Positions 34,107-61,077 of a DNA stretch of 64,000 nt are shown one piece after another. Made by a program: the position numbers and the translations under genes. Each line of letters starts with the position of its first letter. The stretch's first letter is position 1. The notes below the pieces were generated by a model. That model had not been told where the DNA came from, made no database searches, and saw nothing but the letters and a program-made list of their open reading frames with translations. Source of the DNA: an uncultured Elusimicrobia bacterium (lineage in GTDB: Bacteria > Elusimicrobiota > Endomicrobiia > DTEH01); contig CAZDUB010000006.1 of the NCBI GenBank assembly GCA_964508565.1, forward strand, positions 10,647 to 74,646, written 5' to 3'.

Positions 34107-34109
34107 CAT

Positions 34110-34160
34110 TTGAAATCAGAAGTTAAGTTAGATATAATAAATTAACAAAAATACTAACTT
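34110..34160 (+). promoter_or_regulatory. Probable sigma70 promoter and inverted-repeat operator of the abiE operon
   Basis: TTGAAA (34110-34115), 17-nt spacer, TATAAT-type -10 box at 34133-34138. AAGTTAG (34125-34131) and CTAACTT (34154-34160) form an inverted repeat straddling the -10. Confidence 0.55.
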
Positions 34161-34183
34161 TTTATATTTTTTAGCAATGACCT

Positions 34184-35420: not shown

Positions 35421-35421
35421 A

Positions 35422-36147: not shown

Positions 36148-36166
36148 ATAATTATCTGATTTATAT

Positions 36167-37303
36167 ATGAGCTTGAAAATAGATATTATAACTCCATTTT
36201 TTTATCCAATGGTTGGAGGTGCTGAGACTTATGTTTATGAGTTGTCTACACGATTAGCAAAATGTGGTTATGATGTTACTGTTCATACTTCATTTTTTGT
36301 AAAAGAATCATTCAATTTATCTCAGTTTGAAGTTATTAATGGAGTTAAAGTTTATAGATATAAACCAATATGGAGAAATTATTATTATTACTGGCTTTGG
36401 GTACCAATGATTTCAAAAACAGATGTTTTGCATGTATGCGGTTATGGCCATCTGTGTTTTAGTTTAACAATTTTACGCTACAGTCGTAAATTTCCAATAA
36501 TTTCTACACCAATTGGTGTATCTGCACCTATTGAAGGTCCAAAATCTAGGTTATTAAGAAGACTTTATGATTCTATAATTGGTATAAAACATCTCTCAAT
36601 ATGTAAAAAAATCATAGTTTTAGCAGAAGAAGAAAAACAATGGTGTATAACAAGAGGAATTAAAGAGGATAAAATAATCAAAATTCCAGTAGGAATACCA
36701 GAAGAAGCCTTCTTAATTTATGATCCATCTTTAACAAAACAACTTTATAATTTGGAGAAATATATATTATATGTAGGCCGTATTCATAAAGATAAAGGTG
36801 TAGTTGAATTAGTAAAAGCATTTTCATTAGTTAATGTTGAAGTGTCAGATTTAAAATTAGTATTTGTAGGGCCAGATGACGGTTACAGGGATGAAGTTCA
36901 AAAAGTAGCTACACAGTTAAATATACAAGATAAAATTGTATGGGTTGGGAAGGTGACTCAAGAGGAGAAGTATTTATTGATTTCTAATTGTAAAATTTTG
37001 GTTTTACCAAGCAAATATGAACTTCAGGGAATAGTTTTGGTTGAAGCAATGGCGCAAGGAAAACCAGTAGTTGCTACTAATGTAGGTGGTGTTTCTGATT
37101 TTGTAAAAAACGGATGGAATGGGTTTTTGGTTAGGTATGGAGATGTAGAAAGTTTAGCTGATAAAATTAAGATTTTATTAAGCGACAGCAAAATATATGG
37201 GTATTTATCATACAATGCTAAAAAAACTGCGGAAGAATTTAAATGGGATAAAATTATTGATAGATACGAAAAAATTTATAGAGAGATAGCCACAATTAAA
37301 TGA
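36167..37303 (+). CDS. Glycosyltransferase family 4
   Basis: PMVGGAE, LYVGRI..DKG, LPSKYELQGIVLVEAMAQGKPVVATNVGG. Confidence 0.92.
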   Translation: MSLKIDIITPFFYPMVGGAETYVYELSTRLAKCGYDVTVHTSFFVKESFNLSQFEVINGVKVYRYKPIWRNYYYYWLWVPMISKTDVLHVCGYGHLCFSLTILRYSRKFPIISTPIGVSAPIEGPKSRLLRRLYDSIIGIKHLSICKKIIVLAEEEKQWCITRGIKEDKIIKIPVGIPEEAFLIYDPSLTKQLYNLEKYILYVGRIHKDKGVVELVKAFSLVNVEVSDLKLVFVGPDDGYRDEVQKVATQLNIQDKIVWVGKVTQEEKYLLISNCKILVLPSKYELQGIVLVEAMAQGKPVVATNVGGVSDFVKNGWNGFLVRYGDVESLADKIKILLSDSKIYGYLSYNAKKTAEEFKWDKIIDRYEKIYREIATIK

Positions 37304-38523
37304 AAATAGCATTTAACGCAATAAGAGTATCAAATAAAGCGGGTTCTGGTTTTGATACTTTTATAATTAATTTTATTAATACTTTTGCAAAATATATCTA
37401 CTCTGAATTCCAAACTCCTAACTCTGAATTATATTTCGATGTTTATACTTTATATCCATACCACTTCCCAGAAGTTAAAAAAGAAGACATAAAACATATA
37501 AAAATTCCTTTTTTAAGTTGGAGGCGTAATACTAAGTCTCAAAGGACATCAAATAGTATTGGTAACAAACAACAAACTAAAAAGATTTTTTCTTTCCTGA
37601 CTCCTATCTACTACCTCCTATCTACTATCTACTGCCTTTTCGGTGATTACTTTCGTATGTTTTGGACACAATTTATTTTCCCATTTTATGCTTTAAGATA
37701 CGACTTGGTAATTTCATTAACTGAATATGAAGCATCTGTTTTTTTCTCTAAACGGCAAATAATAATTATGCATAGTGTTGTTTTGTTTTTGTTTAGAAAT
37801 TTCCCTAAAAAATATAAGTTATATGTCTCATTTTTACTACCAGAAATATTAAAAAAATGTAGGAAAATAATAGTTGTATCAGAAACCTTGAAGTCGCAAC
37901 TACAACAGATTTTTAGTATTCCTGAAGATAAAATATTTGTTTTATATGAAGGAGTAGATACACAAAAGTTCAGACCTGCTTCAAAAGAAGAGATATTGGA
38001 GTTTAAAAAAGAATTAAACTTGCCCAACAGATATGTTCTTATGGTTGGACATAGTCATCCAGTAAAAAACTTTAGTCGGATACTGGAAAGTTTTAAGTAT
38101 GTGAAAGAAAAAATACATTGTGAACTTGTAATTGCTGGATATATAGGAAAAAATTTAAAGCTACCTTTGTATGTTAGGTATGTTGGTCATGTGACAAATG
38201 AAAAACTATATTTATTATACTCAGCTGCAGAGTGTTTTGTTTTTGCTTCACTTTATGAAGGTTTTGGTCTTCCACCACTTGAAGCAATGGCTTGTGGCTG
38301 TCCTGTAGTTGTTTCAAATAGTGGTTCATTACCAGAAGTATGCGGTGATGCTGCAATTTATGTTGATCCTTATAATCCAAAAGATATTGCGGAAGGAATT
38401 ATTAAAGTTTTATCTAACGAGACATTACGCCAAGAACTTATCAAAAGAGGTTTTAAACAAATAAAAAAATTTACTTGGGAAAAATCAGCTCAAAGATTTA
38501 TGGAGTTGTTGAAAAATATTTAA
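37300..38523 (+). CDS. Glycosyltransferase family 4 (MtfB/WbdA-like) containing in-frame heptamer tracts
   Basis: [47 protein letters not shown]. Confidence 0.92.
37400..37634 (+). repeat. Three degenerate heptamer tracts inside the GT4 CDS
   Basis: ACTCTGA ATTCCAA ACTCCTA ACTCTGA (37400-37427); AACAAAC x2 (37564-37577); ACTCCTA TCTACTA CCTCCTA TCTACTA TCTACTG (37600-37634). Confidence 0.8.
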
Positions 38524-38568
38524 AAATAGTATAAAATATTAAAATAACAATTTTAGGAGGAAAAAACT

Positions 38569-39603
38569 ATGTCTAAAGAAGAAAAACTTAAAGCTTTAAG
38601 TTTAGCTATATCACAAATAGAAAAAGAATACGGTAAAGAAGCAATCGTAAAGCTTGGTGAAAAGAAAAAACTTGAAGTAGAAGTTATACCAACAGGGATT
38701 TTATCTTTAGATTTAGCTTTAGGAGTTGGAGGAGTACCTAAAGGAAGAGTAATAGAAATCTTTGGTCCAGAAGCTTCTGGAAAGACAACCTTAGCTTTAA
38801 CAATTGCTGCTGAAGCACAAAAGCAAGGTGGAATAGCAGCAATGATAGATGCAGAACATGCTTTTGACCCAAATTTTGCAAAAAAATTAGGAGTGGATGT
38901 AGAAAATCTCTATGTTTCACAACCTGATTATGGAGAACAGGCTTTAGAAATAGCGGAAACACTTGTTAGAAGTGGGGCAGTAGATGTTGTTATAGTAGAT
39001 TCTGTTGCAGCGCTTGTTCCTAAAGCTGAAATAGAAGGGGAGATGGGAGAAGCACAGATCGGTCTACAAGCACGACTTATGTCTCAAGCATTAAGAAAGC
39101 TTACTGCTGCTGTAAGCAAATCCAAATCAATTATAATATTTATTAACCAAATTAGACAAAAAATAGGAGTGATGTTTGGTTCTCCTGAAACAACAACAGG
39201 TGGTTTAGCATTAAAATTCTACGCTTCTGTGAGATTAGAGGTAAGAAAAACAGATATTATTCGAGTAGGCGATGAAGTTGTAGGATATTGGGTTAAAGTT
39301 AAAGTTGCCAAAAACAAAGTAGCCCCTCCTTTTAAAGAAGCTACATATGAATTTTATTTTGACAGCGGGATAGATAGGTTGGGATGTTTATTAGATGTAG
39401 CGGTGGAGGAAGGTATAATAGAAAAAGCAGGTTCTTGGTATACTTACAAAAACGAAAAATTAGGGCAAGGAAGGGAACAAGTAAAGAATTACTTAAAGTC
39501 TAATTTAGAATTAGCAAAAGAAATAGAGTCTTCTTTAAGAGCTAAGTTTAATATTCAGCAAACTTCTGCAGTAGAAGAAAAACAACAAGAAAAGAAAAAA
39601 TAA
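38569..39603 (+). CDS. recA: Recombinase RecA
   Basis: [49 protein letters not shown]; AGGAGG RBS. Confidence 0.99.
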
Positions 39604-39615
39604 AGTTTAAATTCT

Positions 39616-41544
39616 TTGATGAGAATTTTAATCATATCTCATACTTTTCCTTATCCACCAAACGAAGGGATAAAACTTCCTTTATACAATTTAATAAAGG
39701 AATTTTCATTGCAAAGCGAAGTGTATCTTTTAAGTTTCATCTTAAAAGATGAATTAAAGTTTATAGATGAAATAAAGAAATATTGCAAAAAAATTGAAAC
39801 TGTAGAATTTGCTCCTCCAATGAGTAGCTTAAAGCGTTTTATTAATTTATTTGAGGCTTTGCCTTTTAATGTAAAACAATTTTATAGTCAAATTTTTAAA
39901 AATAAACTTGTTCAATTGATAGAAGAGAACACCATAGATATTGTATTTTTTGATTTTTTAACAACTGCTCTATATAGTAAATTTGTACAAAAAACAAATG
40001 TTAAATTCTTACACTATCATGATGCTATGAGTATGTTATTTTATAGAAATTCATTAGTTGAAAGAAATTTAATAAAAAAATCTTATTGGTACTTGCAGTA
40101 TAAAAAGCTCTTAAAGTTTGAAAATAATTTTAATGAAATGTTTGACAAAATTACAGTAGTTGCTCCAAAAGATAAATATTGGTTGGTAAATAATTCAAAA
40201 ATTCTTGAACAAAAAATTGAAATTATTCCAAACGGAGTAGATATTGGATATTTTGCTCCTTTTAGTAAAGAGAGAATTTTAGAATTAAAAAAAAGATACA
40301 AAATACATTCCCCATCTTTACTTTTTCGCGGAATAATGAACTTTCAACCTAATATAGATGCCTGTGTATGGTTTATTGAAAAAGTTTTTCCGCTGATTAA
40401 AAAAGAAATTCCTGAGATAAAACTCTATATAGTAGGGCCTAATCCTCCAGCCAAGCTTTTTAAACATAGTGGTCAAGATATAATTATTACTGGATATGTA
40501 GATGACATAAGAGTATATATAGCTTGCTGTGATATAAATATTGCTCCAATGATTAGCGGTTCTGGTATAAAAAATAAAGTGCTTGAAGCAATGGCAATTG
40601 GAAAACCTTCCGTTGTTAGTTCTATTGTAAAAGAAGGAATGCCTGAACTTGAAAACAATTTTAATGTATTATTTGCAGATACTCCGGAAGAATTTGTAAG
40701 ACAAATAAAGTTGTTATTGAATAACAAAGGACTCTATAATAAAATTTCCCAAAATTCTATAAAAACAATTTTAGAAAAATATACTTGGAAGAGTGCGTCA
40801 AAAAAATTTATGGATTTATTTAATGAGGAAATTCAAAAAAGAAAAGTTAAAAGAATCTCAATAATAATTCCTGCTTATAATGAATATAACACAATTTGTG
40901 ATGTATTAAAAAAAGTAAACGAAGTAGACTACGGAATAGAGAAAGAAATTATAGTTGTAAATGATGGTTCTACAGATTCTACTGCTGATAAAGTGAAGCA
41001 GCTTATAAATGAGGGATATCCAATTAAATTAATTTCTCATCAGAAAAATTGTGGAAAAGGTACTGCAATAAAAACTGGTATAAAAAACTCTACTGGCGAT
41101 GTTGTTGCTATTCAAGATGCTGACTTAGAATATAATCCAGAAGAAATTAAGTTTTTGCTTGAACCCATATTAAATAAAAAAAGTTTAGTAGCATATGGCT
41201 CCAGATTTTTAAAACCAAATCCTGTGATTTATAAAAAATACTACTTAGGCAATAAAATAATCAGTAAGTTTATAAGTTTACTTTTTAAAAGAAAAGTTAC
41301 AGATTCCTATACATGTTATAAAGTTTTTCATAAAAAGGCTTTAGAAAACATTGTTTTAAAAAGTAAAGGGTTTGAAATAGAAGCAGAACTTACTTGCAAG
41401 TTTTTAAAAAAAGGTTATGATATTCTTGAACTACCTATTAGTTATTCACCAAGAACTTTACAACAAGGTAAAAAAATCAAATTTAAAGATGCAGTTAAAG
41501 GTTTCTTAACAATATTAGCTAATAAGTTTTCTTTAGCCGATTGA
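39616..41544 (+). CDS. Fused GT4 + GT2 (DPM1-like) glycosyltransferase
   Basis: N-half FRGIMNFQPNID, GSGIKNKVLEAMAIGKP. C-half IIIPAYNE, VNDGSTD, QDADLEYNP, DSYTCYK, GFEIEAELT. Confidence 0.88.
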   Translation: MMRILIISHTFPYPPNEGIKLPLYNLIKEFSLQSEVYLLSFILKDELKFIDEIKKYCKKIETVEFAPPMSSLKRFINLFEALPFNVKQFYSQIFKNKLVQLIEENTIDIVFFDFLTTALYSKFVQKTNVKFLHYHDAMSMLFYRNSLVERNLIKKSYWYLQYKKLLKFENNFNEMFDKITVVAPKDKYWLVNNSKILEQKIEIIPNGVDIGYFAPFSKERILELKKRYKIHSPSLLFRGIMNFQPNIDACVWFIEKVFPLIKKEIPEIKLYIVGPNPPAKLFKHSGQDIIITGYVDDIRVYIACCDINIAPMISGSGIKNKVLEAMAIGKPSVVSSIVKEGMPELENNFNVLFADTPEEFVRQIKLLLNNKGLYNKISQNSIKTILEKYTWKSASKKFMDLFNEEIQKRKVKRISIIIPAYNEYNTICDVLKKVNEVDYGIEKEIIVVNDGSTDSTADKVKQLINEGYPIKLISHQKNCGKGTAIKTGIKNSTGDVVAIQDADLEYNPEEIKFLLEPILNKKSLVAYGSRFLKPNPVIYKKYYLGNKIISKFISLLFKRKVTDSYTCYKVFHKKALENIVLKSKGFEIEAELTCKFLKKGYDILELPISYSPRTLQQGKKIKFKDAVKGFLTILANKFSLAD

Positions 41545-41562
41545 TATTTTGGAGATATTATT

Positions 41563-43461
41563 ATGTGTGGTATTTGTGGGATAGTAAATTTTAACACATT
41601 ATCTATAGATCAACAAAAATTAAAAAAAATGTGTGCTGTTTTGTTTCATAGAGGGCCGGATGAAGAAGGCTTTTACTTTGATAGCCAAGTGGGATTTGGA
41701 ATGCGTCGTTTAGCAATAATAGATCTTATAACTGGACACCAACCAATTCATAACGAAGAACAAACAGTTTGGATTATATGCAATGGTGAAATTTACAACT
41801 TCTTGGAACTTCGTAAAGAACTTGAGATAAAACATCATAAGTTTTATACAAACACAGATGTGGAAGTAATAGTCCATTTATATGAAGAATACGGAATAAA
41901 TTGTGTTAACTACCTAAGAGGAATGTTTGCTTTTGCTTTGTGGGATAAAAAAATAAAAAAATTGTTTTTGGTAAGAGATAGAATTGGTAAAAAACCTTTA
42001 TTTTATTGTTTTAGAAACGGAATGTTACTTTTTGCTTCAGAAATAAAGTCTATACTTGAATACTTAGATTCTACTCCTGAAATAAATCTAAATGCAATAG
42101 ACTATTTCTTAACTTATCAGTATATCCCTCAACCTATAACAATTTTTAAGGATATATACAAACTTCCAGCCGCTTCATATATGGTTTGTGATATGAAAGG
42201 CAACTATCAGATAAAAAAATATTGGGAGGTTGATTTTAGAAAAAAATTAAACATTAGCTTTGAAGATGCAAAATACAAAATAAAACAAATTTTAACTGAA
42301 GCTACAAGGTTACGATTAATAAGTGATGTCCCAATAGGTGCTTTCTTATCTGGTGGACATGATTCAAGTATAATAGTTGGGTTGATGGCTGAGAATTTGC
42401 AACAGAAGGTAAAGACATTTTCTGTTGGATTTAAAGAGCAGAATTTTTCAGAATTAAGATATGCTAGAATTGTAGCAAAACATTTTGGTACTGAACATAC
42501 AGAAATAATTGTAGAACCAAATATGGTAGAAATCTTGCCAAAACTTGTTTGGTTTTATGACCAACCATTCGCGGATACATCAATGATCCCATCCTATTAT
42601 GTGTCAAATGTGACAAGAAAATATGTCAAAGTTGCATTAAATGGTGATGGAGGAGATGAAAACTTTTGTGGATATTTAAGATATCAAGCTATGAAATTGG
42701 CTTCGTTATTTCCATTTGAAGTTTTTGACAGCAGCTTATATGTTACATTAAGCAAACTTATTCCGAATCTAAAAGTTTCTTTTATAAAAAACAAACTTAG
42801 ATATTTTAAAAGGTTTCTTACAGCTTTAGGATATCCAACTCCAACAAGACAAGTTATTTGGCATTGTTTTTTTACTAACGAACTTAAAAATTTTATATAT
42901 TCTAGATATATGAAAGAAAATGTAAAACAAAATGTTTATAACTATTTGATTGATACATATTATAAAGCAAAAGCTTATGATATAATAGACAAAATTTCTT
43001 ATATAGATATTAACACATATCTACCAGAGGATTTACTTGTTAAAATGGATATCGCTTCTATGGCAAATTCACTTGAAGCGCGTTCACCTTTTTTGGACCA
43101 TGTTTTATTTGAGTTTACAGCACAAATCCCATCTAACTGGAAGCTGAAATATGGATTTAAAACGAAATATATCTTAAAAGAAGCATTTAAAAATTTTTTA
43201 CCAAAAGAAATAATAAAAAGACCAAAACAAGGTTTTGGACTTCCTATTAGTAAGTGGTTAAAAGAAGATTTAAAAGAGTATGTTAAAGATATATTGTTTT
43301 CTGAAAAGTTTGCAAAAAGAGGGTTATTTGAACAAAAAAAAGTTGAATTTTTAGTAAACAGGCACTTTTCAGGAAAAGAAGACCATGGATATAGAATATT
43401 TGCTTTAATAGTTTTAGAGTTGTGGTTTAGGGTATATATTGACAAGGAGATAAAATTTTAA
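41563..43461 (+). CDS. asnB: Asparagine synthase-like glutamine amidotransferase (polysaccharide-associated AsnB)
   Basis: MCGICG, HRGPD, CNGEIYN, RDRIGKKPL, FLSGGHDSS, GDGGDE, SLEARSPFLD. Confidence 0.93.
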   Translation: MCGICGIVNFNTLSIDQQKLKKMCAVLFHRGPDEEGFYFDSQVGFGMRRLAIIDLITGHQPIHNEEQTVWIICNGEIYNFLELRKELEIKHHKFYTNTDVEVIVHLYEEYGINCVNYLRGMFAFALWDKKIKKLFLVRDRIGKKPLFYCFRNGMLLFASEIKSILEYLDSTPEINLNAIDYFLTYQYIPQPITIFKDIYKLPAASYMVCDMKGNYQIKKYWEVDFRKKLNISFEDAKYKIKQILTEATRLRLISDVPIGAFLSGGHDSSIIVGLMAENLQQKVKTFSVGFKEQNFSELRYARIVAKHFGTEHTEIIVEPNMVEILPKLVWFYDQPFADTSMIPSYYVSNVTRKYVKVALNGDGGDENFCGYLRYQAMKLASLFPFEVFDSSLYVTLSKLIPNLKVSFIKNKLRYFKRFLTALGYPTPTRQVIWHCFFTNELKNFIYSRYMKENVKQNVYNYLIDTYYKAKAYDIIDKISYIDINTYLPEDLLVKMDIASMANSLEARSPFLDHVLFEFTAQIPSNWKLKYGFKTKYILKEAFKNFLPKEIIKRPKQGFGLPISKWLKEDLKEYVKDILFSEKFAKRGLFEQKKVEFLVNRHFSGKEDHGYRIFALIVLELWFRVYIDKEIKF

Positions 43462-46635: not shown

Positions 46636-47781
46636 CTATTTATATTTAATCTGCACAATACTTGATAAAAATGCTGTAAATATTGTTTGTATACCTATTG
46701 CACTGATAATTAAACTTATAATTCCCAATCTTAATTCTTGTAATTCTCCAAAATTGCTCTTAGCCCATATATAAATAATATAAAGTAACCCCAAAATTCC
46801 TATTGTTAATATCAATAATCCAATAAGTAAAATTCTCTCTAAAGTTAAAAAATTCAAAAGTTTTTTTATAAATTTATTTTCTTCTAAATTTATACTATGT
46901 GTGAACGCTTTTGCAGCAAACCATATGTTTAATATTTGCCATCCAACAATTGTAACCACCCCATTGAAGAATAAAACATGTGTACCCCACTGTCTACCAA
47001 ATAAAAATAAATATCCTTTAAAAACAATTATTAAAGATATTATAACAGTCGGTATAAAGAGTAACACTCCAGGAAGAAGAAACAAATAATCTGGACTATA
47101 TAGTAGCATAAATCTTATATGTCTCCAAGCATCTCTAAAAGAAGAGAGTTTTGACTCACCAATTCTTGGATAGTAAGTAATAGGAATTTCAGTTATTTTT
47201 AGCTTTTTCTTTAAAGCGTGAATCACCATCTCTGAAGCAAATTCCATTCCTGTAGTTCTAAGGTTCATTTTTTGATAAGCTTCCTTGGAAAAACCTCTTA
47301 ATCCACAGTGTGCATCAGAAACATTACCCCCAAAAAACAATTTCAACATCCCACTTAATATTGGATTCCCAATATATCTGTGTGACCAACTCATTGCACC
47401 TTTTAAAATTTTACCTTTAAATCTTGAGCCCATTACTAAGTCGTATCCTTCTTGAAGTTTTTCTAAAAACTTTGGAATTTCATAGAAGTCATATGTATTG
47501 TCGGCATCGCCCATTATTATATATTTACCATTAGCATTTTCTATTCCTTTTCTTAAAGCAGCTCCGTATCCTTTTTGTTCTTCAAATAAAAGTATCACAT
47601 CAGGATACTTTTTTATAACTTCTACAGAAGAATCAGTAGAACCGTTATCAACAACGATTATTTCACCAACAATGTTGTTTTTCTTAAAAACATCTTGTAT
47701 TTTTTTTATACAAATCTCTATTGATTTTTCTTCATTTAAACAAGGAATAACAACGGATAGTTCTATGTGATTTTTGTTCAT
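46636..47781 (-). CDS. GT2 polyprenyl-phosphate glycosyltransferase with C-terminal TM helices
   Basis: VVIPCLNEE, VDNGSTD, MGDADNTYD, DAHCGLRGF, GMEFASEM. Confidence 0.88.
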   Translation of the reverse strand: MNKNHIELSVVIPCLNEEKSIEICIKKIQDVFKKNNIVGEIIVVDNGSTDSSVEVIKKYPDVILLFEEQKGYGAALRKGIENANGKYIIMGDADNTYDFYEIPKFLEKLQEGYDLVMGSRFKGKILKGAMSWSHRYIGNPILSGMLKLFFGGNVSDAHCGLRGFSKEAYQKMNLRTTGMEFASEMVIHALKKKLKITEIPITYYPRIGESKLSSFRDAWRHIRFMLLYSPDYLFLLPGVLLFIPTVIISLIIVFKGYLFLFGRQWGTHVLFFNGVVTIVGWQILNIWFAAKAFTHSINLEENKFIKKLLNFLTLERILLIGLLILTIGILGLLYIIYIWAKSNFGELQELRLGIISLIISAIGIQTIFTAFLSSIVQIKYK

Positions 47782-52328: not shown

Positions 52329-55115
52329 ATGGAACTATCAAAAATAACTCCTAAAGTTGTAGTTTTTACGCCAACTTACAACGAGGCAGAAAATATAGAA
52401 ATTTTTGTTAAGGAAGTTTTTGAAGCTCTTCCAAATTGCCATTTATTAGTAGTAGATGATAATTCTCCAGATGGCACCTCTAAAAAGGTAGAACAACTTA
52501 AAAAGATTTATCCAAATCTTCATCTTTTATTAAGAAAAGAAAAAAGAGGACGTGGATATGCTGGTATAGATGGTTTCAAAAGAGCATTGGAGTTGAATGC
52601 GGATATAATAGTAGAAATTGATGCCGATTTATCACACTCCCCTAAAGACTTACCTAGATTTATAGAATTTTTACAAAATAATCCTGATGTAGATATAGTT
52701 GTGGGTTCTAGATATATTGAAAATGGGAAAGATTCAGAAAGGAACATAATAAGAAAACTAATAAGCTTGTTTGCTAGAGTATATATAAGAATAATCACAG
52801 GTATTCCATTAAAAGATATTACTTCTGGATACAAAGCCTATAGACGAAAAGTAATTGAGACTATTTTACCATATCTTTCTGCGTCAGATCCATTTATAGT
52901 AACAGAAGTAAATTATATATGTAAACTGCATGGCTTTAAGTTTTATGAAATTCCAATTTCATTTCACAAAAGATTACATGGTAAAAGTAAACTTTCTTTT
53001 TTTAAATTGTTAAAATATTTATTTAAAGTTTGGTTGTTAACAATAAAGTGGTTTTTTAAAGATAGTTATAATGCTAACTTTTTTAAGATATTAACCATAT
53101 CTACATTATTGAAATTATTGCTATTAGACAAATTTGGACTTACAGATGACGAGTCTCATTATTGGCAATATGCTCAACATCTTGACTTTTCATATTATGA
53201 CCATCCTGGAATGGTGGGATATTTGATTTATTTATCTACAAAGATTTTTGGTAACAATTACTACGGGGTAAGAACTCCTGCTATATTTTGTTTCTTAATT
53301 GCTTGTTTCTATTTTTATAAATTAGTTAAGGAAATATTTAATTCAAAAATAGCTTTTATGTCTGCTTTCTTGTTAAATGTTATACCAATAGCGTTTGTTG
53401 GCTCAATTATAACCTTACCAGATGCTCCAGTTGGTATGTTTTGGATGATGTATATGTTTTACTTTTATAAGTTTATTATTTCAAAAGATAGTTGGTTTCT
53501 TTATATATGTGGAGTAATTTTAGGAGCTGCTTTTATATCAAAATATAACGCGATATTTTTGTTTATAGGAAGCTTACTTATATTCTTTTTTGATAAAGAA
53601 TTAAGAAAACTTTTAATAAAAAAGGATTTCTATATTTTCTTAATAAACATACTAATTTTTTCTTCACCACTTATTCTTTGGAATATAGCACACAGCTTTG
53701 CTTCATTTCAATATCAATTTTTAAATAGAGTTTCTCAAAAATCTAGTATTTCACTTTTGACTTTCTTAGAGAACTTTGGGTATCAATCAGCATATATTTC
53801 ACCCATAGTTTTTTTATTGTTATGGTATACTATATTCTATTCAATTTTAAATCATAGCAAAGATAAAAAATATAATTTTTTTCTATACTTTGCTCTTCCT
53901 GGAGTTTTACTTTTTAATCTTTTAGGATTTAAAAATAAAATTTTACCGCACTGGCCTGCTATTTCGTATTTTACTTTATTACCAGTATTTGTGGCTTCTA
54001 ATAGAAAAAAGTTTTTGTATACAATTTCCTGGGTATCTTCTTTAGTTATTACTGTTGGGGTAGTTTTTATTACTATTTTTGGATTTATATCTATCCCTGA
54101 AAAATACCAAAATGCTGACACTCCTGATAAACTTTATGGTTGGAATGTAGCAGCTGACGAACTTCATAGATTAATAGAAAAATATCCTGATAGTTTTATA
54201 TTTACACATAAATACTATGTAGCTGGACAAATCCGGTTTGCTTTAGCTAAATACTACAAGGAAAAAATTCCTGAAGTGTTTTGTATAGATGATCATTTTA
54301 ATCAATATGATTTTTGGTCTGAGAATTTAAAGTTCTACAGCGGTAAAGATGCTATTTATGTTACTGAAGAAAGATTTCCGGAAGATAAAGTGTTAAATAA
54401 GTTGCCTTTTGAGAAAATAGAGTTGATATCAGTTATTTCATTTAAGAAAAGTAAATATTGGCCCTTGAGGAAATTTAAGTTTTATATATGTAAAAATTTT
54501 AATTATAAAAACTTATCTGAAGAATTTATACAAAACAAATATAATAATAACATCCGTGTGCTTCAATTTTATAGAGATTATGATAAAAAATTCTTTTTAA
54601 AAATTAACCGAAGCCATTTATATAAAAATAAAATTTTTAGAATTAGTTGGTATGCCTTAACTAGCCTAGGTAATGGATTATTTTTAATTCCAATAGTGAT
54701 AATTACTCTATATTTTATTGATAAAAAAAACTTTGTCAGAAATTTGATATCATTTTTAATACTAATAAGCATAGGTGGTGTGTTAATTCAGTTATTCAAA
54801 AATATTTTTAACAAACCACGGCCATTAAAACTTTTCCATGATATACTACACCAACCAATCAATGTAATTGGAGAACAACTCCGTGAATTGGGATTTCCCT
54901 CAGGACATACATTTCTTGCGTTTTCTTCTATGATATTTTTATCTGATAGAATTAAAAAATTTAAAGTTGATATAATTTTGTTTCTATTAGCTGTATTGAT
55001 TGGTATAAGCAGAGTTTTTGTAGGTGCACATTTCTTAAGTGATGTAATAGGTGGAATACTTTTTGCAGTAGTATTTACAAATATATACCTTAAGATTGAA
55101 AAAGAACTTTCGTAA
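52329..55115 (+). CDS. Triple fusion: polyprenol-phosphate sugar synthase (GT2) + ArnT/PMT-like GT-C + PAP2 phosphatase
   Basis: PTYNEAEN/DDNSPDGT/DADLSH; DDESHYWQYAQHLDFSYYDHPG followed by TM helices; KNIFNKPRP, PSGH, SRVFVGAHFLSD. Confidence 0.86.
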   Translation: MELSKITPKVVVFTPTYNEAENIEIFVKEVFEALPNCHLLVVDDNSPDGTSKKVEQLKKIYPNLHLLLRKEKRGRGYAGIDGFKRALELNADIIVEIDADLSHSPKDLPRFIEFLQNNPDVDIVVGSRYIENGKDSERNIIRKLISLFARVYIRIITGIPLKDITSGYKAYRRKVIETILPYLSASDPFIVTEVNYICKLHGFKFYEIPISFHKRLHGKSKLSFFKLLKYLFKVWLLTIKWFFKDSYNANFFKILTISTLLKLLLLDKFGLTDDESHYWQYAQHLDFSYYDHPGMVGYLIYLSTKIFGNNYYGVRTPAIFCFLIACFYFYKLVKEIFNSKIAFMSAFLLNVIPIAFVGSIITLPDAPVGMFWMMYMFYFYKFIISKDSWFLYICGVILGAAFISKYNAIFLFIGSLLIFFFDKELRKLLIKKDFYIFLINILIFSSPLILWNIAHSFASFQYQFLNRVSQKSSISLLTFLENFGYQSAYISPIVFLLLWYTIFYSILNHSKDKKYNFFLYFALPGVLLFNLLGFKNKILPHWPAISYFTLLPVFVASNRKKFLYTISWVSSLVITVGVVFITIFGFISIPEKYQNADTPDKLYGWNVAADELHRLIEKYPDSFIFTHKYYVAGQIRFALAKYYKEKIPEVFCIDDHFNQYDFWSENLKFYSGKDAIYVTEERFPEDKVLNKLPFEKIELISVISFKKSKYWPLRKFKFYICKNFNYKNLSEEFIQNKYNNNIRVLQFYRDYDKKFFLKINRSHLYKNKIFRISWYALTSLGNGLFLIPIVIITLYFIDKKNFVRNLISFLILISIGGVLIQLFKNIFNKPRPLKLFHDILHQPINVIGEQLRELGFPSGHTFLAFSSMIFLSDRIKKFKVDIILFLLAVLIGISRVFVGAHFLSDVIGGILFAVVFTNIYLKIEKELS

Positions 55116-58278: not shown

Positions 58279-60191
58279 AACTAATAATAGTAGAGTCACC
58301 AACAAAAGAGAAAACTATATTTAAGTTTTTAAACAAGCAATCAAGTAGTTCTAATAAAGAATATATAGTTAAAAGTTCATATGGACATGTAAGAGATCTA
58401 CCTAAAAATAACTTAGGTATAGATGAAAAAAATAGTTTTAAACCATATTATGTAGTTTTACCAAAATCAAAAAAAGTAATATCTGAACTAAAAAAATTTG
58501 TTCAACAGGCACAAGAGATTTATTTAGCAACTGACTATGATAGAGAAGGTGAATCTATTGCATGGCATTTAGTGAATGTTCTCGGGTTAGACATTGATAA
58601 AGTTTTAAGAATTACATTTCATGAAATAACTGAACGAGCAATAATTGAAGCATTAAACAATCCTCGCAAAATTGACATGAATTTAGTAAATGCACAACAA
58701 GCAAGAAGAATTATAGATAGATTAGTTGGTTATAAGATATCTCCTTTATTATGGAAAAAAATAACAAATAGGTTGTCTGCAGGTAGAGTTCAGTCTGTTG
58801 CACTTAAATTTATATACGATAGAGAACTTGAAATAAAAAAATTTGTTCCACAAGAATATTGGACTATTGAGTGTGAGTTTCATAGAGATAAAAACCATTT
58901 ATTGGAAACAAAGTTAACCCATATAAATGGTAAAAAATTAGATAAATTAGATATAAAAACAAAAGACGAAGCTGAAAAAATTATTGAAGAAGTAAAAAAT
59001 GTAGGTTTTGGTAAAATTTTAAGTATAAAGAGAGAAGAAAAATATAAATCACCACCAGAACCTTATATAACTTCCACTCTACAACAAGAAGCCTCTTGGA
59101 AGTTAAAATTTTCTCCTTCAAAAACAATGCTTATAGCACAAAGTTTATATGAAGGTGTGGATTTGGGAAATAACGAACGAGTTGGACTTATTACTTATAT
59201 GAGAACAGATTCTGTATATGTTTCTCCTTATGCTATTGATGAACTTAGACAATACATAAAAGAAAAATTTTCAGAACAATATCTATCAGAAGATATAAGA
59301 AAGTACAAAACAAAAGTAAAAAATGCACAAGAAGCTCATGAAGCTATAAGACCCACAAGTGTTTATAGGGAACCAGAGCAAATTAAAAAGTATCTTACAC
59401 AAGACCAATATAAACTATACAAACTCATATGGCAAAGATTTGTTGCTACACAGATGAAAGATTTAAAATATGAGAATATTATAGTTAAAATAGATGTAAA
59501 CAACAAATTTATGTTTGAATCGAATATCAAAAAAATTTTATTTGATGGTTACACTAAAATTTATCCTGAAGAGCAAAAGGAAGAAACAAAAAAATTTTTT
59601 GAAGTAAACCAAGATGAAATACTTAAGGTTGGTAGTTGTATAAGCAAGCAACATTTTACAGAACCACCACAAAGATATACAGAAGCAAGTTTAATTAAAG
59701 AACTTGAGAAAAATGGCATAGGAAGACCGTCTACTTATGCTACAATTGTGGATACTTTAAAACTTCGTGGTTATGTGCAACTTAAGGAAAGAAAATTTTA
59801 TATAACATCACTGGGTAAGGAAGTGATTGAATTATTGTCTAAATATTTCCCCGATATAATAGACAAATCTTATACTGCAAATATAGAAAAGTTATTAGAT
59901 AAAATTTCTCAAGGCAAAGAAGATTGGGTAAAAGTTGTTTCATTATTTTATAATCCGTTATTAAAACAGTTAAAAAGAGCAATGGAAGAAGTAAAACCAA
60001 AAAACGAAGTTGTATCCGACCAAAGATGTCAACTTTGTGGGGGAAGATTAATAGTTAGAACAAGTAGATATGGAAAATTTTTATCTTGTGAAAATTTCCC
60101 AAAGTGTAAATTCAAAATAAACAACTATGAAAAATCAGGAATTAAAACAGAACCAACTACAAATAACTCAGATATTTCAAAAATTACCTGA
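58275..60191 (+). CDS. topA: DNA topoisomerase I
   Basis: IVESPTK, ATDYDREGE, SAGRVQS, ITYMRTDS, AHEAIRPT, GIGRPSTY, one C-terminal Zn ribbon. Confidence 0.97.
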   Translation: MKLIIVESPTKEKTIFKFLNKQSSSSNKEYIVKSSYGHVRDLPKNNLGIDEKNSFKPYYVVLPKSKKVISELKKFVQQAQEIYLATDYDREGESIAWHLVNVLGLDIDKVLRITFHEITERAIIEALNNPRKIDMNLVNAQQARRIIDRLVGYKISPLLWKKITNRLSAGRVQSVALKFIYDRELEIKKFVPQEYWTIECEFHRDKNHLLETKLTHINGKKLDKLDIKTKDEAEKIIEEVKNVGFGKILSIKREEKYKSPPEPYITSTLQQEASWKLKFSPSKTMLIAQSLYEGVDLGNNERVGLITYMRTDSVYVSPYAIDELRQYIKEKFSEQYLSEDIRKYKTKVKNAQEAHEAIRPTSVYREPEQIKKYLTQDQYKLYKLIWQRFVATQMKDLKYENIIVKIDVNNKFMFESNIKKILFDGYTKIYPEEQKEETKKFFEVNQDEILKVGSCISKQHFTEPPQRYTEASLIKELEKNGIGRPSTYATIVDTLKLRGYVQLKERKFYITSLGKEVIELLSKYFPDIIDKSYTANIEKLLDKISQGKEDWVKVVSLFYNPLLKQLKRAMEEVKPKNEVVSDQRCQLCGGRLIVRTSRYGKFLSCENFPKCKFKINNYEKSGIKTEPTTNNSDISKIT

Positions 60192-61077
60192 AAATTTTAG
60201 AAATCTAATAACTAAATTTAAATTATATTTAATGGCAGAACAAAATGTGTCTCCTAATACGACCATTGCTTATATAGGAGATATAACAGAATTTTTTTGG
60301 TTTGTTTTTAGTAAACTGAAAATTAAAGAAGTTGAACTTGTTAACAAAGTAGTAGTAAGAAGTTTCATATCTTACTTACAAGATTTAAATTATGAAAAAT
60401 CATCAATTATAAGAAAAGTAAATAGTTTAAAAACATTTTTTAGATTTTTGATTAGAAAAAAGATCATTCAATTTAACCCAGTTTTATATATAAGCAACAT
60501 AAAGAAAGCACAACGGCTACCCACCTTTCTTACTAAAGAAGAAATAGAAAATTTGTTTTCTTTAATAGAACCTAAAGATTTTGCTTCAGCAAGGGATAGA
60601 GCATTGTTAGAGCTTTTTTATTCTTCAGGGTTGCGAATTTCCGAAGTTGCCCAACTTACAGAAGATGATATAGATTTATATGAGGGGTTAGTTACAGTAA
60701 AAGGAAAAGGAAATAAAGAACGGATTGTACCTGTAGGAGATATAGCTTTAAAGTATCTTAGGGAATATATGAGATATAAACACAAATTAGTAAATGCTGA
60801 AAAATATTTGTTTTTAAATAAGTTTGGACAAAGATTAAGTGTACGTGGCATAAGAAAAGTAGTATCTAAATGGATTAAAAAAGCGGCAATACACAAGAAA
60901 GTAACCCCACATACATTTAGACATACTTTTGCAACTCACTTATTAGAAGCAGGTTGTGATTTAAGAAGTATCCAAGAGATGTTAGGACACCAGAGTTTGT
61001 CCACTACAAATATATATACGCATTTAACCATAGAGAGATTAAAAAAAATATATCAAGAAGTCCACCCAAGAAAATGA
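60127..61077 (+). CDS. xerC: Tyrosine recombinase XerC/XerD family
   Basis: SGLRISE, GKGNKER, PHTFRHTFATH, LGHQSLSTTNIYTH (R-K-H-R-H-Y intact). Confidence 0.88.
   Translation: MKNQELKQNQLQITQIFQKLPENFRNLITKFKLYLMAEQNVSPNTTIAYIGDITEFFWFVFSKLKIKEVELVNKVVVRSFISYLQDLNYEKSSIIRKVNSLKTFFRFLIRKKIIQFNPVLYISNIKKAQRLPTFLTKEEIENLFSLIEPKDFASARDRALLELFYSSGLRISEVAQLTEDDIDLYEGLVTVKGKGNKERIVPVGDIALKYLREYMRYKHKLVNAEKYLFLNKFGQRLSVRGIRKVVSKWIKKAAIHKKVTPHTFRHTFATHLLEAGCDLRSIQEMLGHQSLSTTNIYTHLTIERLKKIYQEVHPRK

What the first reader, a model, noticed from the sequence alone, without database searches (positions are those of the whole stretch)
52329..55115. One polypeptide joining donor synthesis, periplasmic transfer and phosphatase: GT2 + GT-C + PAP2
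Seen: three intact catalytic signatures in 928 aa: DPM1-type DADxSH, ArnT/PMT-type DE..Y...DHP, and PAP2 K-x6-RP / PSGH / SR-x5-H-x3-D. Known: in Rhizobium, separate RgtE (makes polyprenyl-P-GalA), ArnT-like Rgt transferases and PAP2 enzymes LpxE/LpxF remodel lipid A, and PAP2 enzymes also recycle undecaprenyl-PP. Inference: a self-contained dephosphorylate-and-glycosylate or carrier-recycling machine for lipid A or surface proteins. I do not know of a characterised three-way fusion.
Basis: partly seen in the sequence, partly recalled or inferred. Interest (0 to 1): 0.75.

Follow-up and report, generated by a model that had tools for sequence, protein, structure and literature searches.

The report
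Fused three-enzyme LPS sugar-modification protein
One 928-residue membrane protein of an uncultured Endomicrobia bacterium joins three enzymes that in related bacteria sit side by side in one gene cluster next to a lipopolysaccharide-core gene. It most likely removes a phosphate from lipid A and puts a sugar (probably mannose) in its place, an uncharacterised fused version of a known kind of pathway.

Summary
Window 52329-55115 (+) is one intact 928-aa ORF with GT2 (94 bits), PMT_2 GT-C (103 bits) and PAP2 (77 bits), all above Pfam cut-offs. Every catalytic residue is invariant across 21 homologues of 37-100% identity.

It is not a read-through artefact. The fusion recurs in independent assemblies with conserved synteny.

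In 41 of 80 species-level genomes, mostly Elusimicrobiota, the same parts form a tight cassette: GT9 (LPS-heptosyltransferase family) -> DPMS-type GT2 -> GT-C::PAP2. In two Nitrospirota loci all parts are separate, overlapping genes. A second lineage carries the reverse fusion PAP2::GT-C, followed by a GT2 and an MprF-type flippase-like protein. The window's clade therefore only welded the GT2 onto an older GT-C::PAP2 fusion, seamlessly.

The closest solved structures are P. furiosus Dol-P-Man synthase, ArnT and Aquifex LpxE.

Best explanation (about 0.5): cytoplasmic synthesis of polyprenyl-P-mannose, then periplasmic lipid A dephosphorylation and glycosylation, as with the separate enzymes FlmF1/FlmK/LpxF in Francisella or RgtE/RgtF/LpxE in rhizobia. 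The acceptor and the sugar are inferred, not shown.

Novelty: new variant of a known kind. No characterisation was found in the literature searched.

The parts
52329..55115 (+). Whole ORF, 928 aa: GT2::GT-C::PAP2 fusion protein
   Evidence: ORF listing; three Pfam domains above gathering cut-offs; AlphaFold2 model with mean pLDDT 85.2 and pTM 0.82.
52350..53051 (+). Cytoplasmic GT2 (GT-A fold) domain, residues ~8-241: DPMS-type polyprenyl-phosphate hexose (probably mannose) synthase without its own transmembrane helices
   Evidence: Best solved-structure match is P. furiosus Dol-P-Man synthase 5mlz: 112 bits, E 2.9e-31; profile E 2.2e-42; Foldseek E 3.8e-12. ArnC scores only about 60 bits. The PfDPMS signature residues map to E19, D44, D98/D100, H103, R128, R142, S146, R215 and K221. 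Seven of these are invariant and D98 and S146 are nearly invariant (>=90%) in A1.
52620..52637 (+). DADLSH metal/donor-binding motif (residues 98-103)
   Evidence: Motif found. It aligns with PfDPMS 89-DADLQH-94. D100, S102 and H103 are invariant.
52998..53078 (+). Fusion junction: C-terminal amphipathic interface helix of the GT2 (…KYLFKVWLLTIKWFF) joined by KDSYN to transmembrane helix 1 of the GT-C
   Evidence: In unfused relatives the GT2 ends '…KYLFKVLKLK..GK*' and the GT-C gene starts 'MNYKLWFW…' 0, -1 or -4 nt later. In the fused clade the stop and start are replaced by 2-5 residues. Helices 224-244 and 246-268 in the model.
53064..54098 (+). GT-C transmembrane glycosyltransferase module (residues ~246-590), PMT_2/ArnT-like
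   Evidence: PF13231 at 102.9 bits. Best Foldseek match of the GT-C+PAP2 model is ArnT 5f15/5ezm (E 3e-7 and 1e-6, 576-596 aligned columns). This is ahead of oligosaccharyltransferases (about 3e-5) and PMTs (3e-3 to 3e-2).
53145..53207 (+). First periplasmic loop with the GT-C catalytic signature DDESHYWQYA…YYDHP (residues 273-293)
   Evidence: Motif found. D274, E275, H277, Y278, W279, D291, H292 and P293 are invariant in A1, and most are also invariant in A2.
54111..54548 (+). Soluble alpha/beta domain (residues ~595-740), predicted periplasmic, between the GT-C helices and PAP2
   Evidence: Strands and helices at 599-722 in the model. The region is included in the full-length alignment to ArnT, which has a C-terminal periplasmic domain. 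The periplasmic location is an inference.
54558..55112 (+). PAP2 integral-membrane lipid phosphatase module (residues ~744-928), active site predicted at the periplasmic face
   Evidence: PF01569 at 76.7 bits. Aquifex LpxE 6ebu: phmmer E 3.8e-13, profile E 1.2e-20; Foldseek TM-score 0.81, rmsd 2.6 A, 31% identity. LpxE has a periplasmic N-terminus and a periplasmic active site (PMC6581854).
54798..54824 (+). PAP2 motif C1, K-x6-RP (residues 824-832)
   Evidence: K824, R831 and P832 are invariant.
54897..54908 (+). PAP2 motif C2, PSGH (residues 857-860)
   Evidence: Invariant.
55008..55043 (+). PAP2 motif C3, SR-x5-H-x3-D (residues 894-905), with the nucleophilic His901
   Evidence: S894, R895, H901 and D905 are invariant.

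Best explanation
The gene encodes a three-module inner-membrane enzyme that modifies lipopolysaccharide, formed by fusion of a conserved operon.

Step 1 (family shown, sugar inferred). On the cytoplasmic face, the N-terminal DPMS-type GT2 transfers a hexose, most likely mannose from GDP-mannose, to polyprenyl (undecaprenyl) phosphate.

Step 2 (not explained by the sequence). The lipid-linked sugar crosses the membrane. It would use either a flippase encoded elsewhere or the protein's own transmembrane region.

Step 3 (inferred). On the periplasmic face, the C-terminal LpxE-like PAP2 module removes a phosphate from the acceptor, most likely the 1- or 4'-phosphate of lipid A.

Step 4 (inferred). 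The ArnT-like GT-C module transfers the sugar from polyprenyl-P-sugar directly onto the freed hydroxyl. The product would be a less anionic, glycosylated lipid A.

The topology fits without rearrangement. The GT2 has no transmembrane helix of its own. A single helix leads from it to the periplasmic DE loop. The PAP2 module follows a periplasmic domain, as LpxE's periplasmic N-terminus requires.

In evolution, GT-C::PAP2 is the old fusion. The GT2 gene directly upstream lost its stop codon in the window's clade.
For: (a) Integrity and selection: three domains above cut-off, with all catalytic residues invariant over 37-100% identity.

(b) Functional linkage by gene order and fusion. Of 80 species-level loci, 69 have GT-C::PAP2 in one ORF. 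Forty-one show GT9->GT2->GT-C::PAP2, and gaps between GT2 and GT-C are mostly 0, -1 or -4 nt. Four loci plus the window carry the triple fusion. P0023, also fused, nests among unfused proteins in a neighbour-joining tree, which suggests a second independent fusion. Nitrospirota loci L079 and L080 have PAP2, GT-C, GT9, GT2 and a second GT-C as separate overlapping genes. An independent lineage has PAP2::GT-C followed by a GT2 and a PF03706 flippase-like protein.

(c) LPS link. The cassette's first gene is PF01075 GT9 and matches only the LPS heptosyltransferase I/II/III NCBIfam models. ADP-glyceromanno-heptose 6-epimerase (401 bits, above cut-off) lies nearby in 7 loci.

(d) Closest structures: ArnT for the GT-C, and Aquifex LpxE (TM-score 0.81, 31% identity) for the PAP2.

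(e) Donor. The PfDPMS signature residues are conserved, including His103, which corresponds to the mannosyl-O3 ligand His94. ArnC has Asn at that position.

(f) Precedents with separate enzymes. Francisella FlmF1 (Und-P-Man synthase), FlmK (ArnT-like) and LpxF give phosphate-free mannose at the lipid A 4' position (PMC2233673). RgtE, LpxE and RgtF are encoded by consecutive genes in Oligotropha (PMC7663294). The PAP2 protein LpxT binds ArnT physically in P. aeruginosa (PMC13142001).

(g) Chemistry (established knowledge). A polyprenyl-monophosphate donor releases polyprenyl-P, so the fused phosphatase is better explained as acting on the acceptor.
Against: No biochemical or lipid A structural data exist for any Elusimicrobiota member, and none was found.

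In the window and its fused clade the gene sits among housekeeping genes (rpsA-TPR-comM-[fusion]-LysM-TPR-NlpC/P60-dprA-topA). No GT9 or lpx gene was seen in the parts of the 64 kb examined (tblastn for GT9, Pfam on most ORFs of 150 aa or more). LPS synthesis in this particular clade was therefore not verified.

Aquifex LpxE itself also dephosphorylates undecaprenyl-PP (PMC6581854, abstract seen). B. subtilis YodM/PgpB is almost as close structurally. Similarity therefore cannot separate lipid A phosphatase activity from Und-PP or PGP phosphatase activity.

Scores against the NCBIfam equivalog models are far below their cut-offs: ArnC 69 bits against 529, LpxE 18 against 177, SepP 50 against 250. 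No ArnT model is matched at all.

The 'YYDHPP' motif resembles PMT 'DVHPP' more than ArnT 'EKPP' (from my memory, not tested).

No flippase was found in the cassette (a low-sensitivity test).

The sugar identity rests on conserved residues only.
Confidence: 0.5

Rival explanations
1. Carrier-supply machine. The PAP2 module is an undecaprenyl-pyrophosphate phosphatase of the BcrC/PgpB/SepP type. It regenerates polyprenyl-P at the periplasmic face for the GT2 to reload. The GT-C glycosylates an acceptor that needs no dephosphorylation, such as an LPS core sugar or a lipid A phosphate, as ArnT does.
For: The second-best NCBIfam hit for the PAP2 region is the Und-PP phosphatase SepP (50 bits), and PRK11837 Und-PP phosphatase is also hit. 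Aquifex LpxE, the closest structure, also hydrolyses C55-PP (PMC6581854). A different fusion, P0113 from Nocardioides, joins a VTT/DedA domain, PAP2 and GT2, which looks like a carrier-recycling assembly.
Against: The GT2 and GT-C cycle uses and releases polyprenyl monophosphate, so no pyrophosphatase is needed within the cycle. The conserved and repeatedly evolved fusion partner of PAP2 is the GT-C, whose active site is periplasmic, in both domain orders. It is not the GT2, which is the module that consumes polyprenyl-P. All matches to Und-PP phosphatase models are far below cut-off.
Confidence: 0.17
2. Protein O-mannosylation system of the actinobacterial Ppm1/Pmt (GT39) type. The GT2 makes polyprenyl-P-mannose and the GT-C mannosylates Ser/Thr of secreted or surface proteins. 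The PAP2 module has an accessory role.
For: The GT2 is DPMS/Ppm1-like. PF02366 (PMT) is matched at 26.9 bits, just above its 22.7 cut-off. NCBI names the family 'glycosyltransferase family 39 protein'. Ppm1 plus Pmt is a known bacterial pair (PMC5882110, abstract seen).
Against: Solved PMTs are much weaker structural matches (Pmt4 E 3.4e-3, Pmt1/2 E 3e-2) than ArnT (E 3e-7). This reading explains neither the conserved PAP2 fusion nor the conserved GT9 LPS-type neighbour. The better Pfam match, PMT_2, also covers ArnT-like enzymes.
Confidence: 0.1
3. A different lipid or glycan acceptor. One option is that PAP2 converts a periplasmic-leaflet phospholipid (PA, PGP or DGPP) to its alcohol, which the GT-C then glycosylates to make a glycolipid. 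Another is that the pair acts on a phosphorylated inner-core sugar (Kdo or heptose) rather than on lipid A itself.
For: B. subtilis YodM/PgpB, a PGP phosphatase, is as significant a structural match (E 1.4e-5, TM-score 0.71) as LpxE. The GT9 neighbour points to the inner core as much as to lipid A. Rumen and Elusimicrobiaceae clades keep GT-C::PAP2 without an adjacent GT2 or GT9.
Against: I know of no precedent for a GT-C glycosylating diacylglycerol or phosphatidylglycerol. PAP2 integral-membrane enzymes act at the membrane interface, which fits the lipid A phosphates better than core phosphates (established knowledge). Known systems combining PAP2, an ArnT-like GT-C and a GT2 all act on lipid A.
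Confidence: 0.15
4. Assembly or read-through artefact, or a decaying pseudogene in which only some modules still work.
For: None found. Two relatives (L027, L063) do have a broken ORF between the GT-C and the PAP2.
Against: The 928-aa frame is open. It is conserved at 919-942 aa in more than 20 independent metagenome and MAG assemblies, with conserved synteny down to 40% identity. All catalytic residues are invariant.
Confidence: 0.01

Closest known systems
Francisella novicida FlmF1 (Und-P-mannose synthase, GT2) + FlmK (ArnT/PmrK-like GT-C) + LpxF (PAP2 lipid A 4'-phosphatase)
   Same: The same three enzyme classes. The outcome is a phosphate-free mannose attached directly to the lipid A backbone after dephosphorylation (PMC2233673). 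The GT2 is DPMS-like in both.
   Different: In Francisella they are three separate proteins whose genes are not all adjacent. Here they form one polypeptide, or GT2 plus GT-C::PAP2 in relatives. Sequence identity to the Flm proteins was not measured here. The acceptor position and the sugar are unproven here.
Rhizobium/Mesorhizobium/Oligotropha RgtE (bactoprenyl-P-GalA synthase) + RgtF or RgtD (ArnT-like GalA transferases) + LpxE or LpxF
   Same: The logic is dephosphorylate, then glycosylate the 1 or 4' position of lipid A with a polyprenyl-P-sugar donor. In Oligotropha, rgtE, lpxE and rgtF are consecutive genes (OCA5_c19730/40/50), which is the unfused counterpart (PMC7663294).
   Different: The sugar there is galacturonic acid. 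The GT2 here carries DPMS (mannose-type) signature residues. The rhizobial proteins are separate. The Elusimicrobiota cassette additionally contains a GT9.
ArnC/ArnT (PmrF/PmrK) L-Ara4N pathway of Salmonella, E. coli and Cupriavidus
   Same: A GT2 that loads undecaprenyl-P and a GT-C that modifies lipid A in the periplasm. ArnT is the best structural match for the GT-C module, and ArnC the second-best family match for the GT2.
   Different: ArnT adds the sugar onto the lipid A phosphate and needs no phosphatase. The match to the ArnC NCBIfam equivalog is 69 bits against a 529-bit cut-off, and no ArnT model is matched. There are no deformylase or ArnE/F flippase partners here.
Aquifex aeolicus LpxE (PDB 6ebu)
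   Same: Closest solved PAP2 (31% identity, TM-score 0.81, rmsd 2.6 A). It has the same tripartite motif, a periplasmic N-terminus and a periplasmic active site.
   Different: LpxE is a stand-alone 180-aa protein and is multifunctional (lipid A 1-P, C55-PP, PGP). Its PSGH histidine is replaced by Asp, whereas the window protein keeps PSGH.
Pyrococcus furiosus / eukaryotic Dol-P-Man synthase (DPMS, DPM1) and mycobacterial Ppm1
   Same: Best sequence and fold match for the GT2 module. The donor- and acceptor-binding residues are conserved. M. tuberculosis Ppm1 is likewise a catalytic domain fused to a membrane partner that is a separate protein in other species (my own knowledge, not tested).
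   Different: PfDPMS carries its own GtrA-like transmembrane domain, which may flip the product (PMC12992685). The module here has none, and its membrane partner is the GT-C itself.
P. aeruginosa LpxT-ArnT complex
   Same: A PAP2-family enzyme and an ArnT-type GT-C interact physically at the inner membrane and act on the same lipid A (PMC13142001).
   Different: The interaction there is non-covalent and antagonistic, and LpxT is a phosphotransferase. Here the link is covalent and presumably cooperative.

Membership tests
GT2 polyprenyl-phosphate glycosyltransferase, DPMS/DPM1/Ppm1 type | GT-A domain matching Pfam PF00535 above the gathering score | tested here: met
   94.0 bits against a 23.3-bit cut-off, residues 12-179.
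GT2 polyprenyl-phosphate glycosyltransferase, DPMS/DPM1/Ppm1 type | DPMS signature residues: DAD(L)xH metal/donor motif, Arg/Arg/Ser phosphate-acceptor triad, A-loop Arg/Lys | tested here: met
   PfDPMS E12, D39, D89, D91, H94, R117, R131, S135, R202 and K208 align with E19, D44, D98, D100, H103, R128, R142, S146, R215 and K221. All are invariant or nearly invariant in A1. Q93 is Ser102 here.
GT2 polyprenyl-phosphate glycosyltransferase, DPMS/DPM1/Ppm1 type | Transfers mannose from GDP-mannose to polyprenyl phosphate | not testable with these tools
   Needs an enzyme assay. No NCBIfam equivalog is reached; the best matches are ArnC at 69 bits against 529 and AglJ at 69 against 325.
GT-C, PMT_2 family (covers ArnT/GT83 and GT39-like enzymes) | PF13231 match above the gathering score and a multi-helix GT-C fold | tested here: met
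   102.9 bits against a 26.1-bit cut-off. Foldseek finds ArnT 5f15 at E 3e-7 over about 596 columns, with other GT-C enzymes following.
GT-C, PMT_2 family (covers ArnT/GT83 and GT39-like enzymes) | Acidic catalytic motif (D-E) in the first extracytoplasmic loop | tested here: met
   D274 and E275 are invariant in both A1 and A2. The loop directly follows the first transmembrane helix in the model.
ArnT proper (undecaprenyl-P-L-Ara4N:lipid A transferase) | Match to a curated ArnT equivalog model; L-Ara4N pathway partners (ArnA/B/D/E/F) | tested here: not met
   No ArnT model appears among the NCBIfam hits at E <= 0.1. No Arn partners are seen in the window or the cassettes. The protein resembles ArnT in fold but should not be filed as ArnT.
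Protein O-mannosyltransferase (GT39, PMT) | PF02366 match; closest fold to Pmt1/2/4; protein acceptor | tested here: inconclusive
   PF02366 scores 26.9 bits against a 22.7-bit cut-off and overlaps the much stronger PMT_2 hit. PMT structures are weak matches (E 3e-3 to 3e-2) compared with ArnT. The acceptor cannot be tested here.
PAP2 integral-membrane lipid phosphatase (LPT family) | Tripartite motif KX6RP / PSGH / SRX5HX3D and a PF01569 match | tested here: met
   All three motifs are present and invariant. PF01569 scores 76.7 bits against a 27.2-bit cut-off.
LpxE (lipid A 1-phosphatase) | Curated equivalog match and lipid A 1-phosphatase activity | tested here: inconclusive
   The NCBIfam LpxE model PRK09597 scores 18 bits against a 177-bit cut-off, so it is not met. 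Aquifex LpxE is nevertheless the best solved relative (E 3.8e-13; TM-score 0.81). LpxE enzymes are known to be very divergent from one another (PMC6581854). Activity cannot be tested here.
Lipid A dephosphorylate-and-glycosylate systems (Flm / Rgt type) | Co-occurrence of a polyprenyl-P-sugar GT2, an ArnT-like GT-C and a PAP2 phosphatase acting together | tested here: met
   They are fused here. In relatives they are adjacent or fused in three other arrangements.
Lipid A dephosphorylate-and-glycosylate systems (Flm / Rgt type) | Genomic or biochemical link to LPS/lipid A | tested here: inconclusive
   Met in relatives: GT9 is adjacent in 41 of 80 loci and HldD is nearby in 7. Not met in the window's own clade, where no LPS gene was found in the parts of the 64 kb examined. 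The lipid A structure is unknown.

The most novel reading that the evidence does not exclude
The fused protein, and the GT2 plus GT-C::PAP2 pair of its relatives, could be a complete transmembrane glycosylation machine that also moves its own lipid-linked sugar across the membrane. The GT2 has lost the GtrA-like transmembrane domain that may flip Dol-P-Man in PfDPMS. No GtrA-type or MprF-type flippase gene accompanies the Elusimicrobiota cassette, whereas sister architectures do insert a GtrA domain or keep a PF03706 gene. The GT-C helices would therefore hand polyprenyl-P-mannose from the cytoplasmic catalytic site to the periplasmic one, next to a phosphatase that prepares the acceptor. If true, it would give a single-polypeptide model for the long-unsolved question of how polyprenyl/dolichyl-P-sugars are flipped.
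Probability: 0.12. Interest if true: 0.85.

Novelty: new variant of a known kind. Interest (0 to 1): 0.55.

Why it matters
Four reasons, if the reading is right.

1. It gives a strong 'Rosetta stone' argument. An LpxE-like phosphatase, an ArnT-like transferase and a polyprenyl-P-sugar synthase work as one unit. That unit, often together with a GT9, is widespread in poorly studied phyla: Elusimicrobiota, Omnitrophota, Ratteibacteria, Dependentiae and Nitrospirota.

2. It predicts that these bacteria, including termite-gut and rumen symbionts, carry phosphate-poor, glycosylated lipid A. That would affect charge, resistance to cationic peptides and recognition by host innate immunity.

3. A natural single-chain version is an attractive target for cryo-EM. 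It could show how acceptor dephosphorylation and glycosyl transfer are coupled, and possibly how the lipid-linked donor crosses the membrane.

4. About 700-930-aa proteins currently named only 'glycosyltransferase family 39 protein' could be annotated more precisely.

Tried and rejected
- Literature searches for a described GT-C/PAP2 or GT2/GT-C/PAP2 fusion found nothing relevant. Searches for Elusimicrobia or Endomicrobium LPS and lipid A chemistry also found nothing usable.
- Sequence searches of the PDB with the GT-C part gave no hit, as a single sequence or as a profile. Structure prediction plus Foldseek was needed instead.
- The promoter and terminator scan around the gene was uninformative. 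Promoter-like sites were fewer than in the shuffles (56 against a mean of 80) and terminator-like sites were at chance. No clear Shine-Dalgarno sequence precedes the ATG.
- A GtrA-type flippase was sought by tblastn with the GtrA regions of GT2::GtrA::GT-C relatives. Only the start of the GT-C matched, so none was found in the window or the cassettes. The test has low sensitivity.
- GT9 was sought in the window by tblastn and not found. Pfam annotation of about 40 window ORFs found no lpx, kds, lpt or waa genes.
- Taxon names for the reversed PAP2::GT-C lineage could not be obtained.
- DNA for P0023, the possible second independent fusion, was not available.
- Read-through artefact was considered and rejected.
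- ArnT membership was considered and rejected.
- I could not read model coordinates, so the distance between the PAP2 and GT-C active sites was not measured.

Full report
**1. The observation**

Window 52329..55115 (+) is a single ATG-to-stop ORF of 928 aa, in DNA of 25-36% G+C (mostly about 27%). Pfam finds three domains, each far above its gathering score: Glycos_transf_2 at 12-179 (94 bits), PMT_2 at 291-451 (103 bits) and PAP2 at 807-923 (77 bits).

A database search returned about 20 full-length homologues of 919-939 aa, sharing 76% down to 36% identity. Those with a name are called 'glycosyltransferase family 39 protein [Endomicrobia/Endomicrobiia bacterium]'. In an alignment of 21 of them, all the catalytic residues are invariant. 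The fusion is therefore real, functional and under purifying selection, and a read-through artefact is excluded.

**2. What each module resembles**

- GT2 module. It is closest to Pyrococcus furiosus dolichyl-phosphate mannose synthase: phmmer 112 bits, E 2.9e-31; profile E 2.2e-42; Foldseek E 3.8e-12. ArnC (about 60 bits) and GtrB are second and third. I mapped the residues that the PfDPMS structure paper assigns to donor, metal and Dol-P binding (PMC5526996) through the alignment. This gives E12->E19, D39->D44, D89/D91->D98/D100, H94->H103, R117->R128, R131->R142, S135->S146, R202->R215 and K208->K221. All are conserved or nearly so across the family. ArnC has Asn where DPMS and this protein have His. 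The module is therefore a DPMS-type polyprenyl-phosphate hexose synthase, with mannose the most likely sugar (inference).
- GT-C module. It has no sequence hit in the PDB. AlphaFold2 models are confident: full length pLDDT 85 and pTM 0.82; GT-C+PAP2 pLDDT 82. Foldseek ranks ArnT of Cupriavidus first (E 3e-7 and 1e-6 over about 580-600 columns). Oligosaccharyltransferases follow at about 3e-5, and protein O-mannosyltransferases are well behind at 3e-3 to 3e-2.
- PAP2 module. It is closest to Aquifex aeolicus LpxE: E 3.8e-13; profile E 1.2e-20; TM-score 0.81, rmsd 2.6 A, 31% identity. B. subtilis YodM/PgpB is next.
- Curated models. No NCBIfam equivalog cut-off is reached for ArnC, LpxE or SepP, and no ArnT model is matched. 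These are family resemblances, not orthology.

**3. Topology (inference from the model and from homologues of known topology)**

The GT2 has no transmembrane helix. After its amphipathic interface helix (224-244), one helix (246-268) leads to the loop carrying D274/E275. In ArnT-like enzymes this loop is periplasmic. The GT-C helices are followed by a soluble alpha/beta domain (about 599-722), as in ArnT, and then by the PAP2 helices. LpxE has a periplasmic N-terminus and a periplasmic active site (PMC6581854), which is what this arrangement requires. So the sugar is loaded on the cytoplasmic side, and both dephosphorylation and transfer occur on the periplasmic side.

**4. Comparative genomics, the main new evidence**

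A scan of one genome per species with a GT-C+PAP2 alignment gave 80 loci. Nearly all are Elusimicrobiota. A few are Omnitrophota, Ratteibacteria, Dependentiae (Vermiphilus) and Nitrospirota. ORF analysis gave the following:

| Arrangement | Loci (of 80) |
|---|---|
| GT-C::PAP2 in one ORF of about 700-800 aa | 69 |
| Full cassette GT9 -> GT2 -> GT-C::PAP2, same strand | 41 (plus 5 truncated or broken copies) |
| Three-way fusion | 4 (L001-L004) |
| GT-C::PAP2 with no adjacent GT2 (rumen and Elusimicrobiaceae clades) | 18 |

- In the full cassette the GT2 ORF is separate, about 235-250 aa and 39-53% identical to the window's GT2 module. Gaps between GT2 and GT-C are mostly 0, -1 or -4 nt.
- The first gene of the cassette is a PF01075 family-9 glycosyltransferase. 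It matches only the LPS heptosyltransferase I/II/III models. ADP-glyceromanno-heptose 6-epimerase lies nearby in seven loci (401 bits, above cut-off).
- The four fused loci share the window's synteny: rpsA-TPR-comM-[fusion]-LysM-TPR-NlpC/P60-dprA-topA. The 40%-identical P0022 shares it too.
- At the junction, unfused relatives read '…KYLFKVLKLK..GK*' followed by 'MNYKLWFW…'. The fused proteins read '…KYLFKVWLLTIKWFFKDSYNANFF…'. The stop and start were simply replaced by a few residues.
- A neighbour-joining tree places the main fused clade as one group. It puts the fused P0023 among unfused proteins, which suggests a second, independent fusion (approximate method, no support values).

**5. Independent arrangements of the same parts**

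- In Nitrospirota loci L079 (Leptospirillum) and L080, PAP2, GT-C, GT9, GT2 and a second GT-C are separate, overlapping genes on one strand.
- Among the 50%-identity representatives there is also a reversed fusion, PAP2::GT-C, of about 680-710 aa in many clusters. GT2::GT-C, GT-C::GT2 and GT2::GtrA::GT-C also occur.
- A metagenome scan with the reversed family (80 loci) shows a GtrB/ArnC-type GT2 immediately downstream in nearly all loci. In 38 loci a PF03706 (MprF flippase-like) protein follows it.
- So the trio of PAP2, GT-C and polyprenyl-P GT2 is linked in at least three gene or domain orders. The fusion of PAP2 to the GT-C arose at least twice.

**6. Mechanism and rivals**

A GT-C that uses a polyprenyl-monophosphate sugar releases polyprenyl-P, not polyprenyl-PP. 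A phosphatase welded to the periplasmic transferase is therefore best explained as preparing the acceptor.

Known systems do exactly this on lipid A. In Francisella, LpxF removes the 4'-phosphate, and FlmK adds mannose supplied by the DPMS-like FlmF1 (PMC2233673). In rhizobia and Oligotropha, LpxE or LpxF acts with RgtF or RgtD, with RgtE making the donor. In Oligotropha, rgtE, lpxE and rgtF are consecutive genes (PMC7663294). A PAP2 protein (LpxT) and ArnT also bind each other in P. aeruginosa (PMC13142001).

Together with the GT9/HldD neighbourhood and the ArnT and LpxE fold matches, I put the lipid A dephosphorylate-and-glycosylate reading at about 0.5. The rivals are:

- Und-PP recycling by the PAP2 module (0.17). 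Aquifex LpxE is multifunctional, and a VTT/DedA::PAP2::GT2 protein exists in Nocardioides.
- Another lipid or inner-core acceptor (0.15).
- Protein O-mannosylation (0.10).
- Artefact (0.01).

**7. Weak points**

- No LPS gene was found in the window's own 64 kb, and no whole genome could be inspected.
- The lipid A chemistry of Elusimicrobiota appears to be unknown.
- The sugar is inferred from conserved residues only.
- No flippase was identified.

**8. Novelty and verdict**

The enzyme classes and the pathway logic are known. Three things are new:

- the covalent GT-C::PAP2 unit;
- its further fusion with the donor synthase;
- a conserved GT9-GT2-GT-C::PAP2 cassette in little-studied phyla.

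I found no characterisation of any of these in the library searched. The proteins already sit in databases under a generic name. This is a new variant of a known kind, of moderate to good interest (0.55). It yields a clear, cheap experiment: heterologous expression and lipid A mass spectrometry with single-domain mutants. It also leaves open a speculative but attractive possibility of built-in donor translocation.

Noticed in passing
L079:3624-8900 and L080:9363-15094: In two Nitrospirota genomes (Leptospirillum sp. and a Nitrospirae MAG) all the components are separate, overlapping genes on one strand: PAP2 (188-196 aa) -> GT-C -> GT9 -> GT2 -> a second GT-C. This is the fully unfused form of the cassette.
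   Followed up: yes
L083-L162 (for example L098:8001-11050, L100:11046-11975): An independent lineage has the reverse fusion, PAP2::GT-C (about 680-710 aa). It is followed by a 315-aa GtrB/ArnC-type GT2 and, in 38 loci, by a PF03706 LPG_synthase_TM (MprF flippase-like) protein. No source gives a taxon name for it.
   Followed up: partly
window 16431-18572 (-) and 46636-47781 (-): The window also encodes a 713-aa YfhO-like GT-C and a separate 381-aa AglJ/GtrB-like polyprenyl-phosphate GT2 (137 bits to the AglJ model). This suggests a second lipid-linked-sugar glycosylation system in the same organism.
   Followed up: no
window 31051-43461 (+): A polysaccharide gene cluster: a Wzx-type flippase (31051-32451), a methyltransferase, two GT4 enzymes, a two-domain GT4::GT2 protein of 642 aa (39616-41544) and an asparagine synthase-like amidotransferase. 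recA lies in the middle of it (38569-39603).
   Followed up: no
L034:8124-9266 and equivalents in 41 loci: The cassette's GT9 carries an N-terminal extension of about 45 aa with a Cys-rich C-x9-C-x2-C pattern ('CGYQKNSNAHCKECKNY'), which the heptosyltransferase models do not cover. It is possibly a small zinc-binding element.
   Followed up: no
P0113 (Nocardioides sp. CF8, 770 aa): A different three-part fusion: VTT/DedA domain (37-162), PAP2 (328-439) and DPMS-like GT2 (493-667). It looks like a polyprenyl-phosphate recycling and loading assembly, and it is the best support for the carrier-recycling rival.
   Followed up: partly
P0125 (1156 aa, unnamed bacterium): A GT-C::PAP2 protein with an extra C-terminal region of about 470 aa that has no Pfam match.
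   Followed up: no
L027:1084-3183 and L063:9932-12117: In one Endomicrobium MAG and one Omnitrophota MAG the reading frame is broken between the GT-C and PAP2 parts. This could be a frameshift, a pseudogene or an assembly error.
   Followed up: no
L034, L035, L038, L042, L048, L049, L051, L068 at about 6500-8000 (-); L005:2989-5087; L007:8498-9802: Many Endomicrobium loci carry a second, PAP2-less GT-C paralogue (25-36% identical) next to the cassette. It may be a second user of the same lipid-linked sugar.
   Followed up: no
window 60127-61077 (+): A XerC/D-type tyrosine recombinase gene overlaps the 3' end of topA by 65 nt. The same overlap and gene order are present in the 40%-identity relative L081.
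   Followed up: no
window 10178-12667 (+): An 829-aa protein joining a radical-SAM domain (with the Radical_SAM_N2 domain) to DUF2344. It lies directly after the mreBCD-pbp2-rodA cell-shape cluster.
   Followed up: no
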